From a virus (taxonomy: Duplodnaviria; Heunggongvirae; Uroviricota; Caudoviricetes), in IMG/VR virus record IMGVR_UViG_3300023202_000061: 64,000 bases of DNA; one strand, 5' to 3'. A model generated the notes under the pieces. That model ran no database searches. It was not told the origin of the DNA and saw only the letters and a list, made by a program, of their open reading frames with translations. This document shows positions 19,816 through 31,319 of this stretch, piece after piece. A program made the position numbers and the translations under genes. How positions within the stretch are numbered: the first letter of the stretch is position 1; every line of letters starts with the position of its first letter.

Positions 19816-19883
19816 GTAACGCGCATCGAGATCATTCATCAAACTTGAAAATTGAAAACGAGGGTCTCCACTTTTTTCGTTAC
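19816..19883 (+). repeat. A/B cassette 1 (motif A 19816-19840, motif B 19862-19883), empty
   Basis: GTAACGCGCATCGAGATCATTCATC ... GGGTCTCCACTTTTTTCGTTAC; outer ends GTAACG/CGTTAC are inverted repeats. Confidence 0.6.
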
Positions 19884-19890
19884 TATTTAT

Positions 19891-19963
19891 CCTTCGGTAG
19901 CTGAGGTGGCTTTAGCGCTTGTCTGAAGAACAGGAGATGTCGGTTCGACTCCGACCCGAAGGG
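19891..19963 (+). tRNA. tRNA-Phe(GAA)-like
   Basis: acceptor CCTTCGG/CCGAAGG, loop CTGAAGA, T-arm GTCGGTTCGACTCCGAC. Confidence 0.6.
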
Positions 19964-19980
19964 CTTATATGATAACACAT

Positions 19981-20063
19981 GCTGATGTGGTGGAACGGTA
20001 GACACGGTAGGTTGAGGGCCTGCTGCTCGAAAGGGCGTGAGAGTTCGACTCTCTCCATCAGCA
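19981..20063 (+). tRNA. tRNA-Leu(GAG), type II
   Basis: acceptor GCTGATG/CATCAGC, loop TTGAGGG, long variable arm. Confidence 0.6.
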
Positions 20064-20065
20064 CT

Positions 20066-20146
20066 GCGAGAATGTAGAGCAAAGGCGGCTCAGGGGTCTC
20101 ATAAGCCCTTCCATTCGGCACGACAGGTTCGATTCCTGCTCTCGCA
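20066..20146 (+). tRNA. tRNA with CAT anticodon (Met/Ile), atypical
   Basis: acceptor GCGAGA/TCTCGC, loop CTCATAA, T-loop TTCGATT; extra nucleotides. Confidence 0.35.
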
Positions 20147-20190
20147 ACCATCCCGAAATCTAGTTTAACGGAGAGAACGCTGGTTTACAT

Positions 20191-20262
20191 TGTAGGATAG
20201 GCAATCGGTACGCCGGCTGCTGTTAACCAGTGACGATGGGGGTTCGAGTCCCTCTCCTACAG
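20191..20262 (+). tRNA. tRNA (anticodon region GCTGTTAACCAG, probably Asn GTT)
   Basis: acceptor TGTAGGA/TCCTACA, T-arm GGGGGTTCGAGTCCCTC; anticodon stem ambiguous. Confidence 0.4.
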
Positions 20263-20354
20263 CGAGAGAAGATATTCGTAGGTTCGAATCCTACCATGGC
20301 ACGACTCGGGAGGGTACGGTCATGTGGCTGGAGGAAACAAGTACTTCTCGTTAT

Positions 20355-20435
20355 TTCAGGGTGGCCGAGCGGTAAGGCAGCTGGCTGTTAACCAGTCGCA
20401 GAAATGCATCGCGGGTTCGAATCCTGCCCCTGGAG
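20355..20435 (+). tRNA. type-II-like tRNA, anticodon loop CTGTTAA (GTT?)
   Basis: acceptor TTCAGGG/CCCTGGA, D-arm GCCGAGCGGTAAGGC, extra hairpin GCAGAAATGC. Confidence 0.35.
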
Positions 20436-20436
20436 C

Positions 20437-20543
20437 AGAGTGATGGCGGAATGTGTAGTTGTAAGACTACCGGTAGACGCTAGGTTAGGCAAAAGCTGAA
20501 GTCGAGACAATTTGTCGTGGAGGTTCGAACCCTTCTCACTCTA
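20437..20543 (+). ncRNA. unusual 106-nt tRNA-like gene (canonical acceptor and T-arm, expanded interior)
   Basis: acceptor AGAGTGA/TCACTCT, T-arm GGAGGTTCGAACCCTTC; interior does not fold as a standard tRNA. Confidence 0.35.
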
Positions 20544-20547
20544 CTTA

Positions 20548-20722
20548 GATAACGCGCTTTAGAGGATCTTTCATCGGTAAAGCAAATGTATCATAAACAT
20601 TAGATTGTTGGTTCAAGTCCAACCCTCGCCACCAAACCTGTAAGGAATAAAGGAATACTTACAAGTTCAAATTTCGGCGAGGTAGCTAAATTAAACTCGG
20701 GTCTTCGCCCCTTTTCGTTATC
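20548..20722 (+). repeat. A/B cassette 2 (A 20548-20575, B 20699-20722) enclosing permuted tRNA-like halves
   Basis: 3' portion 20576-20634 (anticodon arm CAT, T-arm, acceptor-3' CCTCGCC-A-CCA), then 5' portion 20676-20698 (acceptor-5' GGCGAGG TA GCT...); the two acceptor strands are perfectly complementary. Confidence 0.55.
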
Positions 20723-20741
20723 TTATTGGTTCCATAGTTTA

Positions 20742-21023
20742 ATGGTAAAGAGAAGAGTAAAAAATACTAAACTAACTAGAGAACGTCATAGGGAGAAGAT
20801 AGCGGATATTAAAAACAATCATCCATGTGTTGATTGTGGTAAGAAGTACCCGCATTATGTTTTACAATTTGATCATTTAAAAGACAAATCATGTAATGTC
20901 TCTAATATGCCGGGTAATGTTTCATGGAAAAAAATTCAGAAAGAAATAGATAAATGTTAAATTGTATGTTCTAACTGTCATCAAATTAGAACATGGGAAC
21001 GAAGACAATCAGGGTATAGCTGA
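20742..21023 (+). pseudogene. HNH endonuclease, interrupted by in-frame TAA at 20958-20960
   Basis: HPCVDCGKKYPHYVLQFDH...KC [TAA] IVCSNCHQIRTWER: the canonical C..CH half of the HNH motif lies after the stop, and the frame runs into tRNA-Pro. Confidence 0.5.
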
Positions 21024-21082
21024 GCTTGGTTTAGCGCCACGTTTGGGACGTGGAGACGGGGGTTCGAATCCCTCTTCCCTGA
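21010..21082 (+). tRNA. tRNA-Pro(TGG)
   Basis: acceptor CAGGGTA/TTCCCTG (one mismatch), anticodon stem CCACG/CGTGG, loop TTTGGGA, encoded CCA. Confidence 0.65.
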
Positions 21083-21158
21083 CCAGAGTGTAATGTCAAT
21101 TTGGTAGACGGCCTGCCTTGGACGCAGGAGGTTGCGAGTTCGAATCCCGCCACTCTGA
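21083..21158 (+). tRNA. tRNA, loop CTTGGAC (anticodon TGG?), abuts previous tRNA
   Basis: acceptor CAGAGTG/CACTCTG, anticodon stem CCTGC/GCAGG; T-stem has a mismatch. Confidence 0.4.
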
Positions 21159-21238
21159 CCGAGTTCTTCTAATGAGGTGAAGATTAAATTTGATGACCGA
21201 GACAGATTAACTTCTGCGAATTTTCAAGCTCCCACAAT

Positions 21239-21318
21239 GCTGATGTGATGAAACTGGTAAACATAGCACGCTTAGAACGTGCCGCTTCGGCTTGGGGGTT
21301 CGAGTCCCTCCATCAGCA
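21239..21318 (+). tRNA. tRNA-Leu(TAG), type II
   Basis: acceptor GCTGATG/CATCAGC, anticodon stem GCACG/CGTGC, loop CTTAGAA, variable hairpin GCTTCGGC. Confidence 0.65.
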
Positions 21319-21501
21319 CAAACTCTTATCAAAGGAGATAATCATGAAGTCAATCGTTACACTCGTCATCTGCGTATGATCTTGCATACGCAGAGAGTAC
21401 AAGGTCATACGCGCCTCAGTAAACCATTCTGGTAACTGGGACAGACCGCTCCCTAGTTCACCTATCTCTGCACCCATCCAAGCGGTGTAAGGTGAACACA
21501 A

Positions 21502-21762
21502 ATGAGTAAGCTAGGAAAGCTCAGAGCATCTGAGCAACGTAAAGCAGCCAAGAGGGCACGTAAAGATTCCAGAAGAAGGTTCTGGGAAAATCTAATGGCT
21601 CAAGGGCTAAATCGTAAAGTCAAGAATTATGAACTTGAGAAGATGCATGGACATGATCATCCGAGAGGTCCTTGCGGAAACATAGGTTGTAAAAAATGTA
21701 ACCCACAAGAGTATAATCTCTTGACCCCACGATTGCTTCATGCAAAGAACAAACAGTCTTAA
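21502..21762 (+). CDS. hypothetical basic protein
   Basis: 86-aa ORF inside the tRNA array. Confidence 0.45.
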   Translation: MSKLGKLRASEQRKAAKRARKDSRRRFWENLMAQGLNRKVKNYELEKMHGHDHPRGPCGNIGCKKCNPQEYNLLTPRLLHAKNKQS

Positions 21763-21793
21763 TTGACCACGACGCCTGGAAGGGCGTCACCTT

Positions 21794-21866
21794 GGAAAGG
21801 TAGCTCAGCTGGTAGAGCATTTGGTTGAAGCCCAGAGTGTCGTTGGTTCGAATCCAACTCTTTCCA
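21794..21866 (+). tRNA. tRNA-Phe(GAA)
   Basis: acceptor GGAAAGG/TCTTTCC, D-arm GCTCAGCTGGTAGAGC, loop TTGAAGC. Confidence 0.7.
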
Positions 21867-21871
21867 CCGTG

Positions 21872-22051
21872 TAACGCGCACTAGAGATCTTTCATCGGTA
21901 TGTAAACCCCTGTGTCGTTAGTTCGAATCTAACCTGGGCCACAAGATCATTGCGATCCTAGACTCCTATCCCAGATAGGGACGGAGTTGCCTGGCCCGGT
22001 AGCTCAGTTGGTAGAGCAAGGAAAAAGCTTGGTCTCACCTCTTTTCGTTAC
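21872..22051 (+). repeat. A/B cassette 3 (A 21872-21896, B 22031-22051) enclosing permuted tRNA-like halves
   Basis: 3' portion ends GTTAGTTCGAATCTAAC CTGGGCC A (21917-21941); 5' portion GGCCCGG TA GCTCAGTTGGTAGAGCA (21993-22018); acceptor strands pair 7/7 with one G-U. Confidence 0.55.
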
Positions 22052-22058
22052 ACAATTT

Positions 22059-22131
22059 GTCCCCATAGATTAGCGGTTAAATCGCTTGGTTTTCACCCAG
22101 GAGATCGTCGGTTCGAATCCGACTGGGGATG
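22059..22131 (+). tRNA. tRNA-Glu(TTC)
   Basis: acceptor GTCCCCA/TGGGGAT, anticodon stem CTTGG/CCAGG, loop TTTTCAC. Confidence 0.65.
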
Positions 22132-22236
22132 CAAGGTTTAGAAGCAGGTTAGCAAATCGCGCGAATAGTGGTTCGAGTCCACACCTAAACTTAGTAGGAA
22201 AAGTGAAGTCTGCAGCTGAACAATTCCTGCGTCTAT

Positions 22237-22308
22237 GGGAGTAGATGGTCCGGTAGACCTGCTTCGCCTGATAAGCGAAGTGGCTAAGTTCAACTCTTAG
22301 TATTCCCA
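22237..22308 (+). tRNA. tRNA-Ile(GAT)
   Basis: acceptor GGGAGTA/TATTCCC, anticodon stem CTTCGC/GCGAAG, loop CTGATAA. Confidence 0.6.
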
Positions 22309-22309
22309 C

Positions 22310-22383
22310 TGGGGTAGACGATCCGGTAGATCTATTACGTCTGATAAATGTGATGCGCTTGAGTTCGACTCTCAGTACCCCAA
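22310..22383 (+). tRNA. tRNA-Ile(GAT), diverged second copy
   Basis: acceptor TGGGGTA/TACCCCA, loop CTGATAA, T-arm TTGAGTTCGACTCTCAG. Confidence 0.5.
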
Positions 22384-22424
22384 CTACGAAACCAAAGGTT
22401 TCTAAAGAAGCTTTGTCTTCATAT

Positions 22425-22492
22425 GGTGTGGTAGTTTTGGAAACAAACTTGGTTGTGACCCAGGTTAAGGGGTTCGATTCCCCGCTACACCC
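22425..22492 (+). tRNA. tRNA-His(GTG)
   Basis: acceptor GGTGTGG/CTACACC, anticodon stem CTTGG/CCAGG, loop TTGTGAC. Confidence 0.6.
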
Positions 22493-22497
22493 CACAT

Positions 22498-22582
22498 GGT
22501 AGGTCAAATCGATTGGCGACGAAAACTGTTTTGAAAACAGCCGAGCGTAACAGCCTTGGGGGTTCGATTCCCTCACCTACCG
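22498..22582 (+). tRNA. tRNA-Ser(TGA), type II
   Basis: acceptor GGTAGGT/ACCTACC, loop TTTGAAA, long variable arm. Confidence 0.55.
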
Positions 22583-22584
22583 CT

Positions 22585-22709
22585 AGACGCGCATCGAGGA
22601 GTGTTCATCGTTATGGGTGGTGAAACTGAGCATCACGCCGGACCCTAGCGGGTCCGTAGTTCTGGGTTCGAATCCCAGCCTATAACCTACTCTTTGAGTT
22701 TTTCGTCTA
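22585..22709 (+). repeat. A/B cassette 4 (A 22585-22609, B 22691-22709) enclosing a closed tRNA-like element
   Basis: interior 22610-22687 has 8-bp acceptor GTTATGGG/CCTATAAC, two hairpins and T-arm CTGGGTTCGAATCCCAG. Confidence 0.5.
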
Positions 22710-22711
22710 AT

Positions 22712-22786
22712 GGACCCTAAGCTAGATTGGAACAGCATCCGGTTCTTACCCGGAAGATATCCTCGGTTCGATTCCGAGAGGGTTCA
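22712..22786 (+). tRNA. tRNA-Lys(CTT)
   Basis: acceptor GGACCCT/AGGGTTC, anticodon stem TCCGG/CCGGA, loop TTCTTAC. Confidence 0.6.
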
Positions 22787-22815
22787 CTAAAATAATTTCG
22801 AACTATCTACTAATA

Positions 22816-23517
22816 TTGTCTCATACAGATATGATAGATAATGGTTCGATATGGTCTGAACAGAATTTCAGAAAAGCTGTTCAAAAAAGTAAAAATATTT
22901 CAGAAACATTAACAAGATTGGGATTAAATCCTCGTGGTAACTATAGAACGTTTCACAAGTATAAGAAAATCTATAGTATAGATACCTCTCATTTTCTTGG
23001 TAAAGATGAAAGATTAAAAATAGCCAGAGAGCAAAGAAAGATAACTAATCTTGATGAAATTTTAGTAAAAGATTCATTCTTTGCACCAAAGGGTCTAAAA
23101 AAGAGATTGATAGAAGAGGGGCATTTTGAATACAAGTGCTCAAGCTGTGAGATATCAGAATGGAAAGGTAAACCACTATCATTACAGATGGATCATATCA
23201 ACGGTGACAAATTTGATAACAGGATTGAAAACTTAAGGCTACTGTGTCCCAACTGTCATTCCCAAACTCCTACATTCTGTGGCAAGTCAAATAAATCAAA
23301 GCATGTTAAGTGTAAGTGCGGAAAGGAGATGTATTACAGTTCAACTCTTTGTAAAGAGTGCATTCTAAAGAATAGAAAAACCAAAATATCCTGGCCTAGA
23401 ATAGAATGGTTACAAGCAGAGGTTAAGAAGAGGGGGTTTGTAGCTGTAGGAAAAGAGTTAGGCGTTTCTGATAACGCCATCAGAAAACGAATACAAAAAA
23501 TTCGTAAGTCTGATTAG
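22816..23517 (+). CDS. HNH homing endonuclease
   Basis: HINGDKFDNRIENLRLLCPNCHSQT. Confidence 0.8.
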   Translation: MSHTDMIDNGSIWSEQNFRKAVQKSKNISETLTRLGLNPRGNYRTFHKYKKIYSIDTSHFLGKDERLKIAREQRKITNLDEILVKDSFFAPKGLKKRLIEEGHFEYKCSSCEISEWKGKPLSLQMDHINGDKFDNRIENLRLLCPNCHSQTPTFCGKSNKSKHVKCKCGKEMYYSSTLCKECILKNRKTKISWPRIEWLQAEVKKRGFVAVGKELGVSDNAIRKRIQKIRKSD

Positions 23518-23524
23518 GACTATT

Positions 23525-23549
23525 GGGGTTCGACTCCCTGGTAGCCCAC
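23525..23549 (+). other. orphan tRNA 3' fragment (T-arm GGGGTTCGACTCCC plus acceptor-3' TGGTAGCC-A) immediately after the HNH gene
   Basis: no matching 5' half nearby. Confidence 0.4.
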
Positions 23550-23550
23550 T

Positions 23551-23664
23551 GGAACGCGCCTTGTTGAGGTTTCATCTGGTGAAATGGAAAACACAATTGA
23601 CAACAAATCAATCAACTGCGGGTTCGACTCCCGCGATGGTTATACTCCTCTTCGCTCTTTCGTT
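23551..23664 (+). repeat. A/B cassette 5 (A 23551-23576, divergent B 23645-23664) with a degenerate tRNA-like interior
   Basis: interior TGGTGAAATGGAAAACAC...GCGGGTTCGACTCCCGC GATGGTTAT; the D-region resembles tRNA-Leu(CAA) at 31324. Confidence 0.45.
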
Positions 23665-23672
23665 CCAAATCT

Positions 23673-23753
23673 TGGGGTGTCATCTAACGGTAGGATGACA
23701 GGTTCTGATTCTGTTCATGCGGGTTCGATTCCTGCCACCCCAGCCCAAAACGT
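23673..23753 (+). tRNA. tRNA-Gln(CTG)
   Basis: acceptor TGGGGTG/CACCCCA, anticodon stem ACAGG/TCTGT, loop TTCTGAT. Confidence 0.6.
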
Positions 23754-23827
23754 ATTCATTCTGTCCGTGGTAACCAAAGGAGTGAATGGAACAAGGAGCC
23801 TGTACTTGGAAACTAATTCAGGTATAT

Positions 23828-23893
23828 TGAGGTATCGTCTAACGGTAGGACAACAGTCTCTGACATGTGGGAGTTCGAATCTCTCTACCTCAA
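23828..23893 (+). tRNA. tRNA, anticodon undetermined
   Basis: acceptor TGAGGTA/TACCTCA, D-arm GTCTAACGGTAGGAC, T-arm GGGAGTTCGAATCTCTC; anticodon stem does not pair cleanly. Confidence 0.4.
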
Positions 23894-23975
23894 CCATCGT
23901 CCCAGTGAGGGTTGAACTCCTTCCTGGTTGGGCTCATGAGCCCATAGCTTGCGCTTCAAGCTGGGACGTTTTCAT

Positions 23976-24048
23976 GCTAACGTGGTATAATGGCTATTAC
24001 GCTACTCTTGTAAAGTAGATGATGCAGGTTCGAGTCCTGTCGTTAGCT
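23976..24048 (+). tRNA. tRNA-Thr(TGT)
   Basis: acceptor GCTAACG/CGTTAGC, anticodon stem CTACT/AGTAG, loop CTTGTAA, encoded CCA. Confidence 0.65.
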
Positions 24049-24091
24049 CCAAATAAGTCGAGAAACTCTGGTAATACTGGAACAATTCATT

Positions 24092-24352
24092 ATGAGAATA
24101 TTTTATCTTTCATTAGTTTTCGTTTTAATTGGTTGTGGTAGTTACATGAATCCAACAACAGATGTAACACGTCCCACAGAACAACAGTTGCAGTCTTACC
24201 AAAATGTTTGGGTTTGTGAAGATGATCAGGGTGTTACTCTTTCTTGTGAGTACGACGCTGATTGTTGTGAAGATTTTTCCTGTGTAAAGGATCCTGCAGG
24301 AGGGCGTAAAGCAAAGCACTGCATTTACGATCCTAATGCGCCTAAAGAGTAA
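24092..24352 (+). CDS. small secreted lipoprotein with 6-Cys knottin-like spacing
   Basis: signal peptide with lipobox LIGC; Cys pattern C-x10-C-x6-CC-x4-C-x11-C. Confidence 0.5.
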   Translation: MRIFYLSLVFVLIGCGSYMNPTTDVTRPTEQQLQSYQNVWVCEDDQGVTLSCEYDADCCEDFSCVKDPAGGRKAKHCIYDPNAPKE

Positions 24353-24380
24353 AGGTTCGCAAGCACCTTGAGCTTGTAAA

Positions 24381-24451
24381 GGTCCCATAGTTTAATGGTA
24401 AAACAAGAGCTTGTCACGTTCTAGTTAGGAGTTCAATTCTCCTTGGGACCG
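24381..24451 (+). tRNA. tRNA-Asp(GTC)
   Basis: acceptor GGTCCCA/TGGGACC, loop TTGTCAC, T-arm AGGAGTTCAATTCTCCT. Confidence 0.7.
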
Positions 24452-24453
24452 CA

Positions 24454-24524
24454 GCGGGTTGGAGCAGTCTGGTAGCTCGGTAGGCTCATAACCTACAGGC
24501 CGCAAGTTCAAATCTTGCACCCGC
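24454..24524 (+). tRNA. tRNA-Met(CAT), elongator-type
   Basis: acceptor GCGGGTT/ACCCGC, anticodon stem GTAGG/CCTAC, loop CTCATAA. Confidence 0.6.
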
Positions 24525-24530
24525 AACTAA

Positions 24531-24633
24531 AGCAACGCGCATCGAGATCATTCATCATTAGTTCGATTCTAATATCCTCCTCCAAGTATGGGGGATAGCC
24601 CATGGGGGCTGTTGGTCTTGCCTCTTTCGTTGT
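24531..24633 (+). repeat. A/B cassette 6 (A 24531-24555, B 24613-24633) enclosing permuted tRNA-like halves
   Basis: 3' portion ATTAGTTCGATTCTAAT ATCCTCC (24556-24579); 5' portion GGGGGAT AG CCCATGGGGGCTG (24590-24612); acceptor strands pair 7/7 with one G-U. Confidence 0.5.
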
Positions 24634-24675
24634 TTAACAATCTAAGATTGTCTGGAGGCCTTAGGGCCTCTAATT

Positions 24676-24749
24676 TGGCCTCATAGTGTAACGGATTAGC
24701 ACGAGACGCTTCGAACGTTTTAGTCCGGGTTCGAATCCTGGTGGGGCTG
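24676..24749 (+). tRNA. tRNA with loop CTTCGAA (anticodon TCG, Arg?) on a Trp-like scaffold
   Basis: acceptor GGCCTCA/TGGGGCT; overall about 80% identical to tRNA-Trp at 19741. Confidence 0.5.
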
Positions 24750-24768
24750 CATAACAGGGCATACAGAT

Positions 24769-25161: not shown

Positions 25162-25225
25162 CATAACTGGATAATGCACCAGTCTACGAAACTGACGATT
25201 GCAGGTTCGAATCCTGCCGGGACTG
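25152..25225 (+). tRNA. tRNA-Arg(ACG)
   Basis: acceptor GGTCCCG/CGGGACT, D-arm GCATAACTGGATAATGC, loop CTACGAA. Confidence 0.65.
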
Positions 25226-25826: not shown

Positions 25827-25854
25827 CTATTCAGACATACTCTTATGAGGAAGC

Positions 25855-26034: not shown

Positions 26035-26104
26035 AAGTGGTAAGACGCCTCTTTTACAAGGAGGTTATCGGGGGTTCGATTCCCTCCTGGACTACTACCA
26101 ATAC
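26034..26104 (+). tRNA. tRNA-Val(TAC)
   Basis: acceptor GGTCCAG/CTGGACT, anticodon stem CCTCT/GGAGG, loop TTTACAA. Confidence 0.6.
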
Positions 26105-26106
26105 CA

Positions 26107-26802
26107 ATGCATTTAGTCATGAACTATGATAAGTTACTGAAACTCGCTGGTATTTATGAGCAGGATACTGGTTCTGCAACTACTGGAGCAGAAGCCCTTG
26201 AGACGGCTCAACGTGATCCTTCTAGGGTTGAAGAGATGCAGCGCATCATTCAGTACTCTTTAGGAGTTCATGACTCTCAATTGGCTTACAAGGCTCTTCA
26301 AAAGGGTATTCAGTTTGCCAATACTATCGAGGGTGCAGATAAGGAAGCCCTGTACAAAGCGGTTCTTGAAACAAGAAAGCCTGATTTTGTAACCTCCTTT
26401 GCTTCTCGTGTTTCTGGACTGGATAACTCCAATCCGAATATTTACAGTGTACTTTCTAGAAACCCTCAATACCTTTACCAATTTGCTAAGGGTGTGAAGG
26501 GTGCTGACACTGATAGGATCTACAAAACCCTTCTTAATATCTACAAGAAGGATCCGAACAATCGATACCTTGTTTGGGCCGATCAAGTAAAGAATATTGC
26601 AGATAAGAGATTGCTACAAGAGCAATACCCAGCTTCAAACCCCGCAGAGCTTTTCCCATTCAAACCAAAAGAAGAGCCAGAAGATGCAGCCCAGGAGGGT
26701 CCGGTTCCACAGGATGAAGAGGTTGCTGAAAAGAAAGAAATAACAGCATCTCTTTTTCAAAAACTGTTATCTCTTGGTATTGTAAATAAGTCGAGAGTGT
26801 AA
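26107..26802 (+). CDS. hypothetical protein
   Basis: 231-aa ORF. Confidence 0.5.
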   Translation: MHLVMNYDKLLKLAGIYEQDTGSATTGAEALETAQRDPSRVEEMQRIIQYSLGVHDSQLAYKALQKGIQFANTIEGADKEALYKAVLETRKPDFVTSFASRVSGLDNSNPNIYSVLSRNPQYLYQFAKGVKGADTDRIYKTLLNIYKKDPNNRYLVWADQVKNIADKRLLQEQYPASNPAELFPFKPKEEPEDAAQEGPVPQDEEVAEKKEITASLFQKLLSLGIVNKSRV

Positions 26803-26811
26803 AGTCATTGT

Positions 26812-27447
26812 TTGTCAATACAAATGGATGGCAAAACTAAACTCTTTGTATCTACTTGTTTAGATCTGCTTCTTACCAAAGGAATAGAGGTTAGACTTAT
26901 TCCTTCAGACAGGGTTGTTGGTGATGACGGAGTTAAGTGTGCTGGTTGGTTTGACAACGAGAAGAAAGAACTTGTTATTGCAACTGCCAGGGATGATTGG
27001 ATTGAAACATTCGTCCATGAATACTGCCACTTTGAACAATACCTAGACGGAATGTTCAAGGGGTTTGACGATTCTCGTCTTTGGAATTGGCTCGGCGGAA
27101 AAATTGAGCTAGAACAGGAAGAGATTAATAGGCTGTGCGTTCAATCCAGGGAGCTTGAGGCTGACTGTGAGCGCAGAGCAATGAGGAAGATAAAGCAATA
27201 TGAACTACCAATTGACACCCGTTACTATGCACGGAAAGGCAATGCGTACATCATGGTCTACAATGCGATTAGTAGATACCATTCAGTCCCGCAAAAAGTT
27301 GCACCATACAGAATCGCAGACATCTGTAACCTCTTTTCAGAAGACATTCTTGAGTCTTTTGATAGTACTCCATCTGAGTACTTTGAACTCTTGAAGAAGT
27401 ACTGTTATGAAAAAAATCAGATAAAGTCTTTTCCTGTTGAGACTTGA
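26812..27447 (+). CDS. hypothetical protein
   Basis: 211-aa ORF. Confidence 0.5.
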   Translation: MSIQMDGKTKLFVSTCLDLLLTKGIEVRLIPSDRVVGDDGVKCAGWFDNEKKELVIATARDDWIETFVHEYCHFEQYLDGMFKGFDDSRLWNWLGGKIELEQEEINRLCVQSRELEADCERRAMRKIKQYELPIDTRYYARKGNAYIMVYNAISRYHSVPQKVAPYRIADICNLFSEDILESFDSTPSEYFELLKKYCYEKNQIKSFPVET

Positions 27448-27815
27448 TCTACGAAGTAATCGAAATTGTCGGCCAACTCTTCGTATAGCGGCCAAGCGCC
27501 ATTGAGGCGCTTGTAGCAGCGGTAGTAGCTGGCCCTTCCAATTCCACTGTAGAAGGAAATGTCACAGGGGATTGACTCCGGGAACATGACTCTGGTAAAG
27601 AAGACCCAGTCCCCTATGTCCTGAAAGAGTTGGAAATTGTGTTTCTGCTTTGCATCAAACCAAAGAAGAACAACTGATTTATCAGAGAGATCCTTTTCGC
27701 CTTTCAAGTACTTTCGCAAAGTAGACTTGATGTATGCGGACGTTTCCCAATGTTCGCTCTTAAGGTCTACCCAACGGTCTAAAACTGACTCGAAACTCTC
27801 TGTGCACAATTTCAT
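27417..27815 (-). CDS. hypothetical protein (minus strand)
   Basis: 132-aa ORF in a region with no competing + ORF. Confidence 0.4.
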   Translation of the reverse strand: MKLCTESFESVLDRWVDLKSEHWETSAYIKSTLRKYLKGEKDLSDKSVVLLWFDAKQKHNFQLFQDIGDWVFFTRVMFPESIPCDISFYSGIGRASYYRCYKRLNGAWPLYEELADNFDYFVDQVSTGKDFI

Positions 27816-28084
27816 GTAATAATGCCGCAGAAGTGATATAGGGGATAGGTACCTACATGTAGGTAAGTTTCAATCGGATTTGTTTCCGGTCGAGATACGA
27901 AGGACTCATGACAAGAGTCGAACGTTGAAGAAGCGTTGACAGCAGGAAAGACTGCCACCTCGATAGAGGATAGCTAAATCACATATAGACTAAAGCACAG
28001 GGAGCTGTGCCACTCTAAGCCATGATTTGGCTGTCTTCAATAGTTGACAGTTCTCTCTGTGCTTGGGGTTTAGTATGGAGAAAC

Positions 28085-28828
28085 ATGAATACATTACTTA
28101 ACAAACTCAGATACCTTGCAGTCGTAGTAACGGCGTTTGCTCTATTGGGAGCAACGGAACCAAAGAATGAGCAAGAGGTATCGCACACATCTGTAGAGAA
28201 AGTTTCTGCACATCTAGTTTCTCTTCCACTATGGTGGGAGGATGCAAGACTTGAGAAACCTGAAGATCGCAAAGAGAGGCTTGATATTGTAGCTGATACA
28301 CAGCTAGATGTTGCTTATGAACTCACATGCACCGGAGTGTATGACACTCCTGAGTGTGAACCGCAGTTCCATTCAGATTACAGAAAGCTTGTTGGACTAA
28401 TCATTACAGCAGGTTTTTGGGAGACCCGATACGCTCGACGTATCCAGCTTGGAGATTGCAAGAAGAAGGGCGAGAAGATGCCTCTTGGAGGTGTAGCTTC
28501 TCGAAACGAATGTGATTCTGGTAGGGCTCGCTCAGTTTATCAGGTTCAAAAGAATGGTGCATACCCAGAGGAGCTTTGGGATAACGCATTAGGGCTTGAT
28601 TGGCAGTCTCATAGAGATGCGGCAATGGCAGCTGGTCTTACCTTCTCTCATGCTTGGAAGAAGTGTTACGGAAACCATGGTGACTATGGGGTATGGGGTG
28701 CTTATGCAATTGGTAAGTGCGCTACGGTTGAGAAGGGTGTTGCTCGCGCACGATCTTATCGAAAGAGAATGGTTATACTTTACAGGGTGTTGCCAGAGAT
28801 GAGGCGTCAAAACAGGAATCCTTCCTGA
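28085..28828 (+). CDS. hypothetical exported protein
   Basis: ATG at 28085 inside track ORF 28022..28828; N-terminal hydrophobic segment. Confidence 0.45.
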   Translation: MNTLLNKLRYLAVVVTAFALLGATEPKNEQEVSHTSVEKVSAHLVSLPLWWEDARLEKPEDRKERLDIVADTQLDVAYELTCTGVYDTPECEPQFHSDYRKLVGLIITAGFWETRYARRIQLGDCKKKGEKMPLGGVASRNECDSGRARSVYQVQKNGAYPEELWDNALGLDWQSHRDAAMAAGLTFSHAWKKCYGNHGDYGVWGAYAIGKCATVEKGVARARSYRKRMVILYRVLPEMRRQNRNPS

Positions 28829-28857
28829 TATAAAAGAGGGTGGAAACACCCTCGCAT

Positions 28858-28929
28858 TCCTGGGTAGCTCAATGGCAGAGCTTTCGGCTGTTAACCGGAT
28901 GGTTGTAGGTTCGACCCCTACCCCAGGAG
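28858..28929 (+). tRNA. tRNA-Asn(GTT)
   Basis: acceptor TCCTGGG/CCCAGGA, D-arm GCTCAATGGCAGAGC, loop CTGTTAA. Confidence 0.7.
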
Positions 28930-29027
28930 CTAGATTACCAGGGAGTTGCACGCTGACCTTTTGCGGTAGATCTAAGTCACAGCGGTAGCCCCTCCCATTT
29001 ACGATCAATCAATACTGAGCCATTTCT

Positions 29028-29405
29028 TTGATGGCTCTGGTTGATCAAATATTGAAAGCTGCGTCCGAATTCCAAGATGCAGCTTACAAAGAACGCAGGC
29101 GTATAGACCTGACAACGGTTCTTCCAACATTGAAGGGCTGGGATGCAATCAAAAGCCTCCTAGCTCAATATGGAATGGATGTAGGCGCAGAATTCGCAAA
29201 GAACAAGCACTACATAAAGAAAGGATCTGGCATCCTTACCAAGATGTATCTTCTTGGTAACTATGATGGGTGTAGAATAATACCAGACTCACCACCACCT
29301 CCATCTTCTCATGTCGAGATTAACCCTGCGATTTATTACAGTGAATCTGCAAAGTACGATAGAGAAGAAGATGAAAGGGAAAACAACCAATACAACGACA
29401 TATGA
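29028..29405 (+). CDS. hypothetical protein
   Basis: 125-aa ORF. Confidence 0.45.
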   Translation: MMALVDQILKAASEFQDAAYKERRRIDLTTVLPTLKGWDAIKSLLAQYGMDVGAEFAKNKHYIKKGSGILTKMYLLGNYDGCRIIPDSPPPPSSHVEINPAIYYSESAKYDREEDERENNQYNDI

Positions 29406-29688
29406 TTGTCCTCTCTGTGGTCGAGAAGTCCCAAAGGTCAGTGACCATCACTTAGTTCCTAAGTCAAGAGGTGGAAGAGAAACACTTCCAATTTGCTTGG
29501 ACTGCCACAAATCAGTACATGCATTCTTCACTAACAAAGAACTAGAGACCACATACAATACGGTCGAGTCCCTCTTGGCGGACGAGAGTTTTGGTAAGCA
29601 CATAAAGTGGCTTTCGAAACAAGATTCCAACAGGCGGTATAAAACCAAGAGACGCAACGACAAGAAGCGTCGAGGAAGAAGTGGTTAA
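29371..29688 (+). CDS. small HNH endonuclease
   Basis: CPLCGREVPKVSDHHLVPKSRGGRETLPICLDCHKSVH. Confidence 0.7.
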   Translation: MKGKTTNTTTYDCPLCGREVPKVSDHHLVPKSRGGRETLPICLDCHKSVHAFFTNKELETTYNTVESLLADESFGKHIKWLSKQDSNRRYKTKRRNDKKRRGRSG

Positions 29689-29925
29689 GTGTCGAATGTT
29701 GTTTACATACAAGATTATCTAAGGAATAAAGACATGATAACAGATACACAAGCTCACGCTGAGTGGGAAAGAGTAGGACTCCGCACACTGCTGCAGAAAC
29801 TCTGCAACTCTCTTTACGAGACAGCGCATGGATTTGTAGTTTCTTTCTTGCCCGACTCAGAAATTGAGGCAGAGAAAGAGTTAGTCAGAGTTTTCGGCGC
29901 TGACTGGCGTACCAGAAAAGGCTGA
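29689..29925 (+). CDS. hypothetical protein
   Basis: 78-aa ORF. Confidence 0.4.
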   Translation: MSNVVYIQDYLRNKDMITDTQAHAEWERVGLRTLLQKLCNSLYETAHGFVVSFLPDSEIEAEKELVRVFGADWRTRKG

Positions 29926-29957
29926 TTCCAAGACCTCTGTAAAGTTAGAGGTCACAT

Positions 29958-30029
29958 GCTCCTTTAGCTCAATGGATAGAGCAACCGGCTTCTACCCGGT
30001 CGATGAGGGTTCGAGTCCTTCAAGGAGTG
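29958..30029 (+). tRNA. tRNA-Arg(TCT)
   Basis: acceptor GCTCCTT/AAGGAGT, anticodon stem ACCGG/CCGGT, loop CTTCTAC, encoded CCA. Confidence 0.65.
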
Positions 30030-30032
30030 CCA

Positions 30033-30257
30033 ATGGAAAAGTATGAATACAGTGTGATTGATGTAGTGAATAGAATTCACTGTACAGTCCGAGGAACCTG
30101 GCAAGATTACTCTGATCTTGAGTACATGAAGAAAGCATCTGAATGGCTCTCTTGGAGGGTTAGAGAAGGCTGGGATGACTCAGATGATACACAGTACGCA
30201 TCATTGCTTAGGTGTATGGCTCTCATCACTTTAGATGAAGCAAAAAAAAATGGTTAG
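30033..30257 (+). CDS. hypothetical protein (start moved downstream of the tRNA)
   Basis: ATG after tRNA-Arg; the track ORF 30003.. overlaps the tRNA. Confidence 0.4.
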   Translation: MEKYEYSVIDVVNRIHCTVRGTWQDYSDLEYMKKASEWLSWRVREGWDDSDDTQYASLLRCMALITLDEAKKNG

Positions 30258-30311
30258 AGATATATACTCCTAAGGAACAATCAATACAACAGTATAATAT
30301 AATGATATACT

Positions 30312-30384
30312 GGGCCTATAGCACAACGGTTAGTGCAAGCCGCTCATAACGGATAGGTTGGGGGTTCGAATCCCTCTAGGCCCA
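30312..30384 (+). tRNA. tRNA-Met(CAT)
   Basis: acceptor GGGCCTA/TAGGCCC, loop CTCATAA, T-arm GGGGGTTCGAATCCCTC. Confidence 0.6.
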
Positions 30385-30397
30385 CTAAGCTAACTAT

Positions 30398-30479
30398 GGT
30401 GAATTAACACGGCTGGGCCGTGAGTCCTCTTTCTTCGGAGACTGGTCAAGTTAGCGAGTTCGATTCTCGTAATTCACCC
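30398..30479 (+). ncRNA. tRNA-like gene with 8-bp acceptor and 6-bp D-stem (Sec-like fold), anticodon uncertain
   Basis: acceptor GGTGAATT/AATTCACC, D hairpin CACGGC-TGG-GCCGTG, anticodon region GTCCTC-TTTCTTC-GGAGAC, T-arm GCGAGTTCGATTCTCGT. Confidence 0.35.
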
Positions 30480-30482
30480 TAA

Positions 30483-30601
30483 GTAACGCGCTTGAGAGAT
30501 CGTTCATCTTTTATTTGCAACATAAAACCAGCCTGTTCGATTCAGGCAATACTGCTCATGGTGGTCTAGGAGAGCAACTCGGTCTTTCTTCTTTTCGTTA
30601 C
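30483..30601 (+). repeat. A/B cassette 7 (A 30483-30507, B 30581-30601) enclosing a tRNA 3' portion
   Basis: interior has anticodon-like hairpin TTTTAT-TTGCAAC-ATAAAA (GCA), T-arm GCCTGTTCGATTCAGGC, acceptor-3' AATACTG, then D-arm-like GCTCATGGTGGTCTAGGAGAGC. Confidence 0.45.
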
Positions 30602-30606
30602 TTTAT

Positions 30607-30679
30607 GTCCCCATCTTACTAACGGTTAGGTGGTCTGATTCTCAGTCAGAAGGTCTCGGTTCGAATCCGGGTGGGGATG
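30607..30679 (+). tRNA. tRNA-Glu(CTC)
   Basis: acceptor GTCCCCA/TGGGGAT, anticodon stem TCTGA/TCAGA, loop TTCTCAG, encoded CCA. Confidence 0.6.
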
Positions 30680-30681
30680 CC

Positions 30682-30984
30682 ATGAAGGTACCTGGTGAAT
30701 ACTTAGTAATTCTTGGTGATGAGTTTTCAAAACTAAAAATACCAAAAACCCCAGGTGAATTCTGGGAGTGCCTGAATGAAGAGTTTTTGCACAAAAAGGT
30801 TGATCTTAATAAACTTAAGCACTGGGTTCGTCATAGACTAGAATTATTTTTACAAGTAGGTTCAATAGATAAAATACCAGATCTCGATGTACACCAAAAT
30901 CAGAGTGATGCTTGCGAAGTATTTATTCTTGCAGATGGAAAAGATTTAGAGATTTGGTTAGTAGAAAATTTCAAGGCCATATGA
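30682..30984 (+). CDS. hypothetical protein
   Basis: 100-aa ORF. Confidence 0.45.
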   Translation: MKVPGEYLVILGDEFSKLKIPKTPGEFWECLNEEFLHKKVDLNKLKHWVRHRLELFLQVGSIDKIPDLDVHQNQSDACEVFILADGKDLEIWLVENFKAI

Positions 30985-31077
30985 AATATTTATGGTGCTC
31001 ACCGCAATGAGATTATCTCTTTAGCTTATACAACATTAACTCTAACACTAGGGATTGCGGGTGTTGTATAAGTGTCT

Positions 31078-31148
31078 GTCGAGGATCCAAATGGCCAGGG
31101 GGCTGTCTGCAAAACAGTTATTAGCGGGTTCGATTCCCGCCCTCGACT
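31078..31148 (+). tRNA. tRNA-Cys(GCA)
   Basis: acceptor GTCGAGG/CCTCGAC, anticodon stem GCTGT/ACAGT, loop CTGCAAA. Confidence 0.6.
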
Positions 31149-31152
31149 CTAA

Positions 31153-31319
31153 GTAACGCGCTTTGAGATCATTCATCGCCTGTTAAGCCGGATATGGAGG
31201 TTCGATTCCTTCTTCTCGCGCTAAAAGCTAGTTAGTGTACGCACTAAAAGCTAATAAGTGTACGCGAGAATCGTCTAATGGTAGGACGCCGTAAAATGAG
31301 GTCTCGCATCTTTCGTTAC
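31153..31319 (+). repeat. A/B cassette 8 (A 31153-31177, B 31300-31319) enclosing permuted tRNA-like halves
   Basis: 3' portion ...GGAGGTTCGATTCCTTC TTCTCGC G (31196-31220); 5' portion GCGAGAA TC GTCTAATGGTAGGACG (31264-31288); acceptor strands perfectly complementary. Confidence 0.55.
31220..31264 (+). repeat. tandem direct repeat, 2 x about 23 nt (GCTAAAAGCTAGTTAGTGTACG / CACTAAAAGCTAATAAGTGTACG)
   Basis: forms the linker between the permuted halves of cassette 8. Confidence 0.6.

What the first reader, a model, noticed from the sequence alone, without database searches (positions are those of the whole stretch)
19816..31319. Family of 8 A/B-bounded cassettes in the tRNA arrays, several enclosing circularly permuted (split) tRNA-like halves
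Eight times, a conserved motif A (consensus RTAACGCGC-N3-GAG(A/G)ATC(A/T)TTCATC) starts 0-8 nt after the 3' end of a tRNA. Eight times, a motif B (GGTCT-N6-8-(C)TTTTCGTTAC) ends 4-9 nt before the 5' end of the next tRNA. The first 6 nt of A (GTAACG) and the last 6 nt of B (CGTTAC) are reverse complements, so each A...B unit can close into a stem in a polycistronic precursor. In cassettes 2, 3, 6 and 8 the interior holds, in this order, a tRNA 3' portion (T-arm plus acceptor 3' strand, sometimes a full anticodon arm) and then a tRNA 5' portion (acceptor 5' strand plus D-arm). The two acceptor strands pair 7/7 in all four cases: CCTCGCC with GGCGAGG, CTGGGCC with GGCCCGG, ATCCTCC with GGGGGAT, and TTCTCGC with GCGAGAA. 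That is the gene order of a circularly permuted tRNA (3' half upstream of its own 5' half), with A and B in the positions a leader and trailer bulge-helix-bulge (BHB) motif would occupy. Cassette 4 holds a closed tRNA-like element with an 8-bp acceptor instead. Cassette 1 is empty. An intein-containing RtcB ligase and a 2H phosphoesterase, the enzyme types needed to join and heal cut tRNA halves, are encoded 5-8 kb away. A recombinational origin is also possible: joined B|A gives the palindrome CGTTACGTAACG.
Basis: seen in the sequence. Interest (0 to 1): 0.85.

Follow-up and report, generated by a model that had tools for sequence, protein, structure and literature searches.

The report
Clamped tRNA-mimic RNAs in phage arrays
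Eight small structured RNA genes sit between the tRNA genes of a very large phage; most likely they are not split tRNA genes but tRNA look-alikes of the "Y RNA-like" (YrlA) kind, closed by a previously undescribed conserved stem.

Summary
Eight A...B cassettes lie on the tRNA strand at 19816-31319, where chance predicts none. A and B pair as two helices, P1 and P2. These covary richly across 30 distinct copies from this phage and about four related uncultured phages. Each A pairs with its own downstream B.

In C2, C3, C6 and C8 the interior is a T-arm, a closed 7-8 bp acceptor stem and a D-arm. That "permuted" order is real and shows many compensatory changes.

The split-tRNA reading is not supported:
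- There is no bulge-helix-bulge motif.
- The pre-T region is 0-37 nt long and is not conserved.
- Anticodon-like loops differ between homologous cassettes.
- Calls of a "tRNA with intron" on rotated cassettes survive shuffling of the clamp and anticodon region.

The architecture is that of YrlA-type Y RNAs. A covariance model built only from cassette cores finds RNAs upstream of Ro60 (TROVE) genes in 94 of 157 viral loci, and nothing in 859 kb of control DNA. Junction motifs also resemble YrlA: UUCAUC against UUAUC, plus an A-run.

There are three differences. The usual Ro60-binding motif is replaced by a conserved clamp (AACGCGC / UUUUCGUU). No Ro60 gene lies in the 64 kb. The genes sit inside tRNA arrays.

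Verdict: a new variant of a known kind, with partner protein and function unknown.

The parts
19816..19883 (+). Cassette C1: clamp only (P1 GUAACG/CGUUAC, P2 GAGAUC/GGUCUC, UUCAUC at 19835-19840). It has no tRNA-like module.
20549..20721 (+). Cassette C2. Clamp (AUAACG/CGUUAU; GAGGAUC/GGUCUUC). Anticodon-arm-like hairpin 20584-20601 with loop AUCAUAA. T-arm 20607-20623. Acceptor 3' strand 20624-20630 followed by ACCA. Acceptor 5' strand 20676-20682. The D-arm is degenerate.
21871..22051 (+). Cassette C3. Clamp. T-arm 21917-21933. Acceptor 3' strand 21934-21940. 52-nt structured loop. Acceptor 5' strand 21993-21999. D-arm 22002-22017. It matches Rfam YrlA positions 23-87.
22584..22709 (+). Cassette C4. 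Clamp (UAGACG/CGUCUA; GAGGAGU/ACUCUUU) around an unpermuted tRNA-like element. Acceptor 22610-22616 with 22679-22686. D-arm 22619-22636. 7-bp stem with UAGC tetraloop 22639-22656, in place of an anticodon arm. T-arm 22662-22678.
23551..23666 (+). Cassette C5. Clamp (GGAACG/CGUUCC) around an unpermuted, degenerate tRNA-like element. Hairpin 23596-23612. T-arm 23618-23634. UCAUC of motif A pairs with GAUGG as an acceptor-like stem.
24532..24633 (+). Cassette C6, the most compact permuted form. Clamp (GCAACG/CGUUGU, with a G-U pair). UUCAUC runs directly into the T-arm 24557-24573. Acceptor 24574-24580 with 24590-24596 (9-nt loop). D-arm-like hairpin 24598-24609.
30483..30601 (+). Cassette C7. 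Clamp. T-arm 30531-30547. D-arm-like hairpin 30553-30576. No acceptor stem. It is identical to LFUG01019272.1 (locus L127).
31153..31319 (+). Cassette C8. Clamp. Decayed Asn-like anticodon loop CUGUUAA. T-arm 31196-31212. Acceptor 31213-31219 with 31264-31270; the loop holds a tandem 22-nt duplication. D-arm 31273-31287.
36027..38231 (+). Context only: RtcB RNA ligase interrupted by an intein with a LAGLIDADG domain.
38772..39134 (+). Context only: 2H-SAK phosphoesterase.
41044..41520 (+). Context only: cREC (cyclic-phosphate processing receiver) domain protein.

Best explanation
The eight cassettes are genes for small non-coding RNAs of the Y-RNA-like (YrlA-type) kind. They are tRNA mimics, not tRNA genes.

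Shown:
- Each RNA is closed by a two-helix clamp (P1 and P2). The internal-loop and junction nucleotides are strongly conserved: AACG-CGC, UUCAUC, an A-run, and UUUU-CGUU.
- The clamp carries a variable, tRNA-derived module. In C2, C3, C6 and C8 it is a T-arm, a closed 7-8 bp acceptor stem and a D-arm. In C4 and C5 it is an unpermuted tRNA-like body. In C7 it is a T/D elbow alone. In C1 it is absent.

Inferred:
- The RNAs are co-transcribed with the tRNA array.
- The enzymes that mature the flanking tRNAs release them. 3'-end processing of the upstream tRNA makes the 5' end. RNase P cleavage of the downstream tRNA makes the 3' end.
- Copies with a 7-8 bp acceptor stem may also be nicked by RNase P and CCA-tailed into two-piece RNAs, as shown for Mycobacterium smegmatis YrlA.
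- The clamp is a protein-binding site. The partner could be a Ro60-type protein encoded elsewhere in the phage or host, or another phage protein.
- The tRNA-shaped module presents a tRNA look-alike to tRNA-handling enzymes. This would serve the phage's tRNA repair and translation-takeover programme (tRNAs, tmRNA, EF-Tu, PTH2, RtcB, 2H-SAK, cREC). It might act as a scaffold, or as a decoy for tRNA-targeting nucleases.
For: Structure:
- Eight copies against 0 expected.
- P1 is 100% paired with compensatory changes.
- Each A fits its own B better than any other B (0 of 20000 permutations reach the observed value). It also fits its own B better than the upstream neighbour's B in C2, C4, C5 and C6.
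- G-U pairs in P1 and P2 fit only + strand RNA.
- RNAalifold recovers P1, P2, T, AS and D independently; 14 of 26 pairs have compensatory changes.
- In the T-AS-D core, 97.8% of cells are paired and 13 of 16 pairs are compensatory; 0 of 500 shuffles reach this.
- The 16 distinct acceptor stems score 6.9/7 with their own partner and 3.6/7 with non-cognate partners.
- By eye, the nucleotide before the T stem covaries with D-loop position 15 (G15:C48 or A15:U48) in 7 of 8 copies. This is the tertiary pair that Chen et al. 2014 reported for YrlA (alignments; PMC4201824).

Conservation:
- Every window cassette has a counterpart at 67-86% identity in other uncultured phages, always inside tRNA arrays.

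Link to YrlA:
- Rfam RF02553 matches C3 at 35.8 bits over model positions 23-87.
- This is the same partial match, at about the same score, as the RNA upstream of the Ro60 gene of mycobacteriophage Bxz1 (32.5 bits).
- Model R1, built only from cassette cores, finds 150 hits in 94 of 157 viral Ro60 (TROVE) loci. All but one are on the gene's strand and most lie upstream of the gene.
- R1 finds nothing in 859 kb of unrelated viral DNA.
- Ro60-linked RNAs share the junction motifs: GUUAUC-like before the V region in 36 of 41, and an A-run after the D-arm in 26 of 41.
- Several phage Ro60 loci hold 2-4 tandem copies, of both orientations, next to a tRNA.
- M. smegmatis YrlA, which has a 7-bp acceptor stem, is cut by RNase P and CCA-tailed in vivo (PMC4201824).

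Context:
- RtcB, 2H-SAK and cREC are encoded 5-10 kb away.
Against: - No TROVE/Ro60 gene is found in the 64-kb window or in the roughly 90 kb held from related phages, by tblastn or by two HMMs with a positive control.
- The motif thought to bind Ro60 (GNCGAA, or GCCGGAG) is absent from the 5' strand of all 30 copies. It is present in 30 of 41 Ro60-linked RNAs.
- None of the 157 Ro60 loci carries the clamp motif.
- The Rfam score is below the gathering threshold (35.8 against 69).
- R1 also hits junctions of tandem tRNA genes, for example 34188-34263. Its hits therefore show shared tRNA-like topology rather than proven common descent.
- Expression, processing and protein binding are all inferred.
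- Single-sequence folding z-scores are modest (-0.2 to -3.4).
Confidence: 0.6

Rival explanations
1. Genuine circularly permuted (split) tRNA genes. An endonuclease cuts the precursor within the A/B helix and RtcB joins the ends. RNase P and 3' processing then open the acceptor loop, giving a continuous, chargeable tRNA.
For: - The gene order is 3' portion before 5' portion, with 7/7 acceptor pairing, in C2, C3, C6 and C8.
- Some copies keep anticodon-loop-like heptamers with U33 and A37: AUCAUAA in C2, CUGUUAA in C8 and CUCAUAA in L003:902.
- One relative (L059:2338) can form a perfect ACGGA/UCCGU anticodon stem across the clamp. After rotation ARAGORN calls it tRNA-Asn(GUU) with a 53-nt intron.
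- RtcB, 2H-SAK and cREC are encoded nearby.
Against: - There is no bulge-helix-bulge geometry.
- No splicing endonuclease was found among the 50 ORFs scanned against Pfam.
- The pre-T region is 0 nt long in C6 and L008:10926 and is unconserved elsewhere. Anticodon-like loops differ between homologues.
- ARAGORN intron calls give inconsistent anticodons. In 54-100% of shuffles of the clamp and anticodon region the call persists, for seven of the eight cassettes.
- The clamp also encloses unpermuted, partial or no tRNA-like parts (C1, C4, C5, C7).
- The window already encodes standard tRNAs for the same anticodons.
- Ends made by RNase P and tRNA 3' processing (5'-phosphate and 3'-OH) are not RtcB substrates (established enzymology).
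Confidence: 0.07
2. Cis-acting punctuation of the tRNA precursor. The clamp pairs the trailer of one tRNA with the leader of the next. This would guide or protect processing, or stabilise the transcript. The enclosed tRNA-like pieces would be tolerated debris with no function of their own.
For: - The clamp starts 2-4 nt after an upstream tRNA, or after a tRNA-like element or fragment. In 7 of 8 cases it ends 2-7 nt before the next tRNA or tRNA 5' fragment.
- Clamp-only copies exist in this phage and in relatives.
- The clamp sequence is far more conserved than its cargo.
Against: - Only 8 of about 40 tRNA junctions carry a clamp.
- The cargo's T, acceptor and D helices, and a tertiary pair, are maintained by compensatory changes across phages. 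That indicates selection on the module itself.
- No terminator-like or promoter-like signal coincides with A or B.
Confidence: 0.15
3. DNA-level relics. The cassettes would be ends of a small mobile element, or scars of recombination and homing-endonuclease activity in the array (B|A gives the palindrome CGTTACGTAACG). They would have no RNA function.
For: - HNH endonuclease genes and tRNA gene fragments are interspersed in the arrays of this phage and its relatives.
- Overlapping pieces of anticodon stems in some copies suggest an origin by tandem duplication of tRNA genes (read by eye).
Against: - The inverted repeat is only 6 bp and no target-site duplication is seen.
- P1 and P2 keep pairing through G-U pairs and double changes. 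These make sense only in + strand RNA.
- All copies are on the tRNA strand.
- Structure is conserved at 67-86% sequence identity across phages.
Confidence: 0.08

Closest known systems
YrlA-type bacterial and phage Y RNAs (Rfam RF02553; Chen et al. 2014, PMC4201824)
   Same: - The 5' and 3' ends pair into a closing stem.
- The interior is a tRNA-like module in the order (V), T-arm, closed acceptor stem, D-arm, with canonical T- and D-loop nucleotides and a covarying 15:48 pair.
- A U-U-(C)-A-U-C junction motif follows the inner stem. An A-run follows the D-arm.
- Partner RNAs without the tRNA module exist (YrlB-like, as in C1).
- Several tandem copies per phage locus occur, sometimes beside tRNAs.
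- There is a link to RtcB operons.
- Reciprocal covariance-model hits.
   Different: - The GNCGAA / GCCGGAG motif thought to bind Ro60 is absent. In its place is a conserved AACG-CGC / UUUU-CGUU clamp, which is not seen at any of 157 Ro60 loci.
- No Ro60 gene lies within 64 kb.
- There are eight copies spread through tRNA arrays, abutting tRNAs on both sides.
- The cargo is much more variable.
- The score is below Rfam's gathering threshold.
Deinococcus radiodurans Yrn1-type Y RNA
   Same: C4 and C5 resemble it. The tRNA-like body is in the unpermuted order (D, anticodon-like stem-loop, T). The closing stem extends from the acceptor end. The anticodon loop is shortened.
   Different: The stem sequence is different, and no Ro60 gene is nearby.
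Circularly permuted tRNA genes of the red alga Cyanidioschyzon merolae and some other algae and archaea (own knowledge; Soma et al. 2007)
   Same: The 3' portion is encoded upstream of the 5' portion. The acceptor strands are complementary and joined by an intervening sequence. Leader and trailer pair with each other.
   Different: Those genes have a bulge-helix-bulge at the termini, depend on a splicing endonuclease, and rebuild a conserved anticodon arm. None of these features is found here.
Two-piece tmRNA from permuted ssrA genes (alpha-proteobacteria, cyanobacteria; own knowledge)
   Same: It is a bacterial precedent for a permuted tRNA-like domain. The acceptor loop is excised, leaving two base-paired pieces.
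   Different: The cassettes have no tag reading frame and no pseudoknots. The window has a normal one-piece tmRNA at 60878-61256.

Membership tests
YrlA / Y RNA-like (RF02553) | tRNA-like module with T-arm, closed acceptor-like stem and D-arm in that order, with tRNA-type loop nucleotides | tested here: met
   Met in C2 (D-arm degenerate), C3, C6 and C8, and in about 15 copies in relatives. Rfam alignment. RNAalifold. Pair counts. Model R1 cross-detects Ro60-linked RNAs.
YrlA / Y RNA-like (RF02553) | 5' and 3' ends pair to form a long closing stem | tested here: met
   P1 and P2 covary.
YrlA / Y RNA-like (RF02553) | GNCGAAN0-1G motif near the 5' end (proposed Ro60/Rsr contact) | tested here: not met
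   Seen in 0 of 30 clamps. G[GC]CG[GA] is present upstream of 30 of 41 Ro60-linked cores. A CGAAA-like run occurs on the 3' side in about 6 copies only.
YrlA / Y RNA-like (RF02553) | Encoded next to a Ro60 (TROVE) gene | tested here: inconclusive
   No TROVE gene in the 64-kb window or in the held parts of relatives. The rest of these genomes of more than 170-200 kb could not be read. The two related contigs are not among the 160 best viral TROVE loci listed.
YrlA / Y RNA-like (RF02553) | Score at or above Rfam's gathering threshold (69 bits) | tested here: not met
   C3 scores 35.8 bits and the other cassettes give no hit. The Ro60-adjacent RNA of phage Bxz1 also scores only 32.5 bits. None of 10 phage TROVE loci reached the threshold.
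YrlA / Y RNA-like (RF02553) | Bound by Ro60/Rsr in vivo | not testable with these tools
   Needs immunoprecipitation or EMSA.
Circularly permuted tRNA gene | 3' half upstream of the 5' half, with complementary acceptor strands | tested here: met
Circularly permuted tRNA gene | Bulge-helix-bulge motif formed by leader and trailer at the processing site | tested here: not met
   A/B form a 6-bp helix, an asymmetric internal loop (about 6 by 7-9 nt) and a 6-7 bp helix.
Circularly permuted tRNA gene | Joining the halves rebuilds a conserved anticodon arm and anticodon | tested here: not met
   The pre-T region is 0-37 nt and unconserved, and its loops differ between homologues. ARAGORN calls on rotated cassettes are no better than after shuffling.
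Circularly permuted tRNA gene | tRNA splicing endonuclease available | tested here: inconclusive
   None among the 50 window ORFs scanned against Pfam. Small ORFs and the rest of the genome were not examined.
Two-piece (permuted) tmRNA | Tag reading frame and pseudoknots joined to the tRNA-like domain | tested here: not met
   ARAGORN and Rfam find a tmRNA only at 60878-61256. The cassettes are 68-181 nt long.
Miniature inverted-repeat mobile element | Terminal inverted repeats with target-site duplication, in either orientation | tested here: not met
   The repeat is 6 bp, no duplication is seen, all copies are on one strand, and pairing is kept through G-U.

The most novel reading that the evidence does not exclude
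Some cassettes may be real discontinuous tRNA genes of a bacterial virus. Candidates are those with a 7-8 bp acceptor stem and an anticodon-loop-like heptamer: C2 (CAU), C8 (GUU-like), and the relatives L003:902 (CAU) and L059:2338 (GUU). RNase P and CCA addition would open the acceptor loop. The result would work either as a two-piece, clamp-held, chargeable tRNA, or as a continuous tRNA after excision of the clamp and ligation by the neighbouring RtcB. This would be the first permuted or split tRNA system outside archaea and algae.
Probability: 0.07. Interest if true: 0.9.

Novelty: new variant of a known kind. Interest (0 to 1): 0.6.

Why it matters
Y RNA-like tRNA mimics have so far been recognised by their position next to Ro60 genes and by a short stem motif. 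Here the same tRNA-shaped module sits inside phage tRNA arrays in up to eight copies per 12 kb. It has a different, strongly conserved closing stem and no Ro60 gene in sight.

If these RNAs are expressed, three things follow:
- tRNA-mimic RNAs would be more widespread and more modular than current models capture.
- They could be produced at no extra cost by the tRNA-processing machinery.
- Very large phages would carry them together with tRNAs, tmRNA, EF-Tu, RtcB and cyclic-phosphate enzymes. That points to a role in the contest over host tRNA cleavage and repair.

The conserved clamp is a ready-made bait for finding the partner protein. The finding also warns annotators: permuted-looking tRNA halves in phage arrays need not be split tRNA genes.

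Tried and rejected
- Known ribozyme or other RNA families: Rfam gave nothing at gathering thresholds over the window. It gave nothing at E<=10 over 19.3-32.2 kb except tRNA-type hits, one YrlA hit and a tail of far sub-threshold matches (Plastid UTR motifs on the reverse strand of tRNAs, miRNA, snoRNA, U6).
- Hammerhead on the minus strand, hairpin ribozyme, HDV-like or theta ribozyme, kink-turn, integron attC, IS200/IS605 ends: considered by eye. All were dropped because the conserved nucleotides or the topology do not fit.
- Intrinsic terminators or promoters at A/B: none found.
- 'B...tRNAs...A' as the unit (an intron-like or leader-trailer reading): rejected, because each A covaries with its own downstream B.
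- Close cultured relatives: none in 50,697 phage records.
- The first collection scan with a loose pattern returned mostly chance hits. One recurrent false family lies in coding sequence (L020 and others). The single genome-collection hit (Leptospirales MAG, L122) and several metagenome hits are also coding sequence.
- Ro60 search: tblastn and two HMMs on the window and relatives were negative. Two scans of viral contigs for TROVE genes returned only the best 80 of 366 and of 465 loci. The related contigs were not among them, which is inconclusive.
- A TROVE contig from the same metagenome as one relative (L282) has 54% G+C against 39%, so it is a different phage.
- Extending the window through exact-protein look-ups gave only fragmentary contigs.
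- A distant-relative search with ORF 10782-12059 found two huge-phage contigs without clamps or a TROVE gene in the stretch fetched.
- A literature search found no report of permuted tRNAs or clamp-type RNAs in phages.

Full report
WHAT IS THERE

The window looks like part of a very large uncultured phage. It holds 44 tRNA genes, a tmRNA, EF-Tu, PTH2, a PIN-PhoH protein, NAD-salvage enzymes and an RNA-repair cluster: RtcB with an intein, 2H-SAK and cREC. No cultured phage is close to it. Pieces identical to the window occur in a metagenome assembly (LFUG01, GCA_001543945.1) and in a Logan assembly.

Within the main tRNA array, the pattern ACGCGC-N8-14-TTCATC occurs eight times. All copies are on the tRNA strand. 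The pattern never occurs in 100 shuffles. Each copy is followed 57-181 nt later by a U-run plus CGTTAC-type motif. This gives cassettes C1-C8 at the coordinates listed under 'parts'.

- The written consensus is too rigid.
- C6's B motif lies 43 nt from the next tRNA.
- Several 'tRNAs' upstream of A motifs are aberrant tRNA-like elements or fragments.

THE A/B ELEMENT IS A STRUCTURED RNA CLAMP

I collected 30 distinct cassettes from the window and from four or five related uncultured phages. The relatives include two contigs of 169 and 208 kb. In every case the cassettes lie inside tRNA arrays.

P1 is formed by the first and last six nucleotides. It is paired in 180 of 180 cells. The three outer pairs covary (GC, AU, GU, CG, UA). 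The inner AACG/CGUU is invariant. No shuffle out of 500 reaches these values, and slid registers collapse to 21-65% paired.

A second helix, P2, is typically GAGAUC/GGUCUC and has a U-G pair. It takes 18 different forms with matching partners. Each A fits its own downstream B better than the B of any other cassette (0 of 20000 permutations). In C2, C4, C5 and C6 it also fits better than the neighbouring upstream B.

Two conclusions follow:
- The unit is A...B, not B-tRNAs-A.
- The G-U pairs place the selection on + strand RNA, not on DNA.

Between and beside the helices lie invariant nucleotides: CGC after P1, UUCAUC after P2, an A-run before the 3' strand of P2, and UUUU before the 3' strand of P1. 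No terminator-like or promoter-like signal coincides with the motifs. No Rfam family other than tRNA-type models and YrlA matches above noise.

THE INTERIOR

The cargo varies between cassettes.
- C2, C3, C6, C8 and about 15 copies in relatives hold a canonical T-arm, then seven nucleotides that pair with a heptamer further downstream, then a D-arm.
- Sixteen distinct acceptor-like stems pair 6.9/7 with their own partner, against 3.6/7 with non-cognate partners.
- RNAalifold, run without guidance on eight full cassettes, returns P1, P2, the T-arm, an 8-bp acceptor stem and the D-arm. Fourteen of 26 pairs carry compensatory changes.
- On a core alignment of 12 copies, 97.8% of cells pair and 13 of 16 pairs show double changes.
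- By eye, the nucleotide before the T stem covaries with D-loop position 15 (G:C or A:U) in seven of eight copies. That is the tertiary pair expected of an L-shaped tRNA fold.
- C4 and C5 hold unpermuted tRNA-like bodies. In C4 the anticodon arm is replaced by a 7-bp stem with a tetraloop.
- C7 keeps only T- and D-arms.
- C1 and five copies in relatives hold nothing but a short A-rich loop.

Each window cassette has a counterpart at 67-86% identity in another phage. The family is therefore inherited and under structural selection.

WHY IT IS NOT A SET OF SPLIT tRNA GENES

- The clamp is not a bulge-helix-bulge.
- No splicing endonuclease appears among 50 ORFs scanned.
- The segment that should supply the anticodon arm is 0 nt long in C6 and up to 37 nt elsewhere. 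It folds weakly and is not conserved.
- Where an anticodon-like heptamer exists, it differs between homologous cassettes.
This gave no ARAGORN call without introns. With introns allowed, 6 of 8 were called, with anticodons taken from arbitrary places.
- After shuffling everything between the D-arm and the T-arm, 54-100% of shuffles were still called for seven of the eight cassettes (2% for C2). The calls reflect only the acceptor, D and T parts.
- One relative (L059:2338) can form a perfect anticodon stem across the clamp with loop UUGUUAA. Together with overlapping stem fragments in other copies, I read this as a trace of origin from tandem tRNA genes. It keeps the exotic reading alive only at low probability.

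WHAT IT RESEMBLES

The topology is a closing stem, a variable V region, a T-arm, a closed acceptor stem and a D-arm. This is the architecture of YrlA-type Y RNAs (PMC4201824).
- Rfam's YrlA model aligns to C3 over its tRNA-like core at 35.8 bits.
- The RNA just upstream of the Ro60 gene of mycobacteriophage Bxz1 gives the same partial match at 32.5 bits.
- For a reciprocal test I built a covariance model (R1) from cassette cores only.
- R1 scores the Bxz1 RNA at 36.8 bits.
- R1 finds 150 hits of 34-64 bits in 94 of 157 viral Ro60 loci fetched with TROVE alignments. All but one are on the gene's strand and most lie upstream of the gene.
- R1 finds nothing in 859 kb of unrelated viral DNA.
- R1 also scores junctions between tandem tRNA genes. 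It therefore demonstrates a shared tRNA-like topology rather than proven homology.

The resemblance extends beyond the core. Ro60-linked RNAs carry GUUAUC-like sequence after their inner stem (36 of 41) and an A-run after the D-arm (26 of 41). These are the positions of UUCAUC and the A-run here. Phage Ro60 loci often hold two to four such RNAs in tandem. One (L201) has both orientations next to a tRNA.

M. smegmatis YrlA has a 7-bp acceptor stem. It is cleaved by RNase P and CCA-tailed in vivo. The 7-8 bp stems here are therefore plausible RNase P substrates.

WHERE IT DEPARTS

- The 5'-strand motif thought to contact Ro60 (GNCGAA, commonly GCCGGAG) is absent from all 30 clamps. It is present upstream of 30 of 41 Ro60-linked cores.
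- Conversely, the clamp motif is absent from all 157 Ro60 loci.
- No TROVE gene is detectable in the window or in the parts of related contigs I could read. Whether one lies elsewhere in these genomes could not be settled.
- The cassettes are multi-copy, dispersed through tRNA arrays, and abut tRNAs on both sides.

MECHANISM, WITH STATUS OF EACH STEP

Shown: a conserved RNA clamp with covarying helices; a tRNA-shaped module under structural selection; location on the tRNA strand directly between tRNAs.

Inferred:
- The cassettes are co-transcribed with the array.
- They are released by tRNA 3'-end processing upstream and by RNase P downstream.
- Copies with a full acceptor stem may be nicked by RNase P and CCA-tailed.
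- A protein binds the invariant nucleotides of the clamp.
- The RNAs act as a scaffold or decoy in the tRNA cleavage-and-repair contest. This last point rests only on the neighbouring RtcB, 2H-SAK, cREC, PTH2, EF-Tu and tmRNA genes, and on the known Ro60-YrlA-RtcB association.

VERDICT

The best reading, at about 0.6, is a new variant of YrlA-type tRNA-mimic RNAs with a novel clamp.

Rivals:
- Cis-acting punctuation of the tRNA precursor: 0.15.
- DNA-level relics: 0.08.
- True permuted tRNAs: 0.07.

Noticed in passing
window 20437-20545, 22498-22581, 30392-30478, 22133-22200: Aberrant tRNA-like elements that ARAGORN does not call. They have 7-bp acceptor stems but odd or oversized interiors. 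One scores 34.8 bits on the tRNA-Sec model. Three of them lie directly upstream of cassettes C2, C4 and C7.
   Followed up: partly
window 20727-20960 and 22816-23549: HNH endonuclease ORFs sit against tRNA gene fragments. A tRNA-Asp-like 5' fragment (GGTTCCATAGTTTAATGG...) supplies the ATG of the 72-aa HNH ORF from within its D-loop. A T-arm/acceptor 3' fragment follows the 233-aa HNH ORF. HNH genes are the main conserved ORFs in the arrays of the relatives too.
   Followed up: partly
window 31220-31263: The acceptor loop of C8 contains a tandem duplication of about 22 nt (CTAAAAGCTAGTTAGTGTACGC / CTAAAAGCTAATAAGTGTACGC). In many relatives the loop holds a small covarying hairpin (GATTC-GTAA-GAATC, AGTTC-GAAA-GAACT) followed by a 7-8 nt leader-like stretch.
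   Followed up: no
window 50605-50677, 60878-61256, 32800-34029, 12835-13464: The phage also carries an amber-suppressor-type tRNA (anticodon CUA, 69.5 bits on the tRNA model), a full tmRNA (tag ANDNAFAPAALAA), an EF-Tu gene and a PTH2 peptidyl-tRNA hydrolase. This is an unusually complete translation and rescue kit.
   Followed up: no
window 36027-41520: An RNA-repair cluster: RtcB split by an intein with a LAGLIDADG domain, a phosphoribosyltransferase, 2H-SAK, a nucleoside-hydrolase-like protein and a cREC domain protein.
   Followed up: partly
L201 590-1130 (IMGVR_UViG_3300020037_004512): Upstream of a phage Ro60 gene lie at least three tandem Y-RNA-like genes and then a normal tRNA. One has an unpermuted tRNA-like body and two have the T/acceptor/D order. 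Each has a GCGAAAG or GCCGAAG motif. Other Ro60 loci (for example L168, L170, L190) have four tandem hits.
   Followed up: partly
L125 1450-1490: A partial extra copy of motif A (GTAACGCGCTTGAAGATCATATAACT) lies immediately upstream of a complete clamp-only cassette. This suggests local duplication of the clamp.
   Followed up: no
window 34145-34311 and 22237-22384: Directly abutting duplicate tRNA genes (two tRNA-Lys(UUU), two tRNA-Ile(GAU)). Such junctions mimic the permuted T/acceptor/D topology and score up to 41.7 bits with model R1. They are a source of false positives for any search of this kind.
   Followed up: yes
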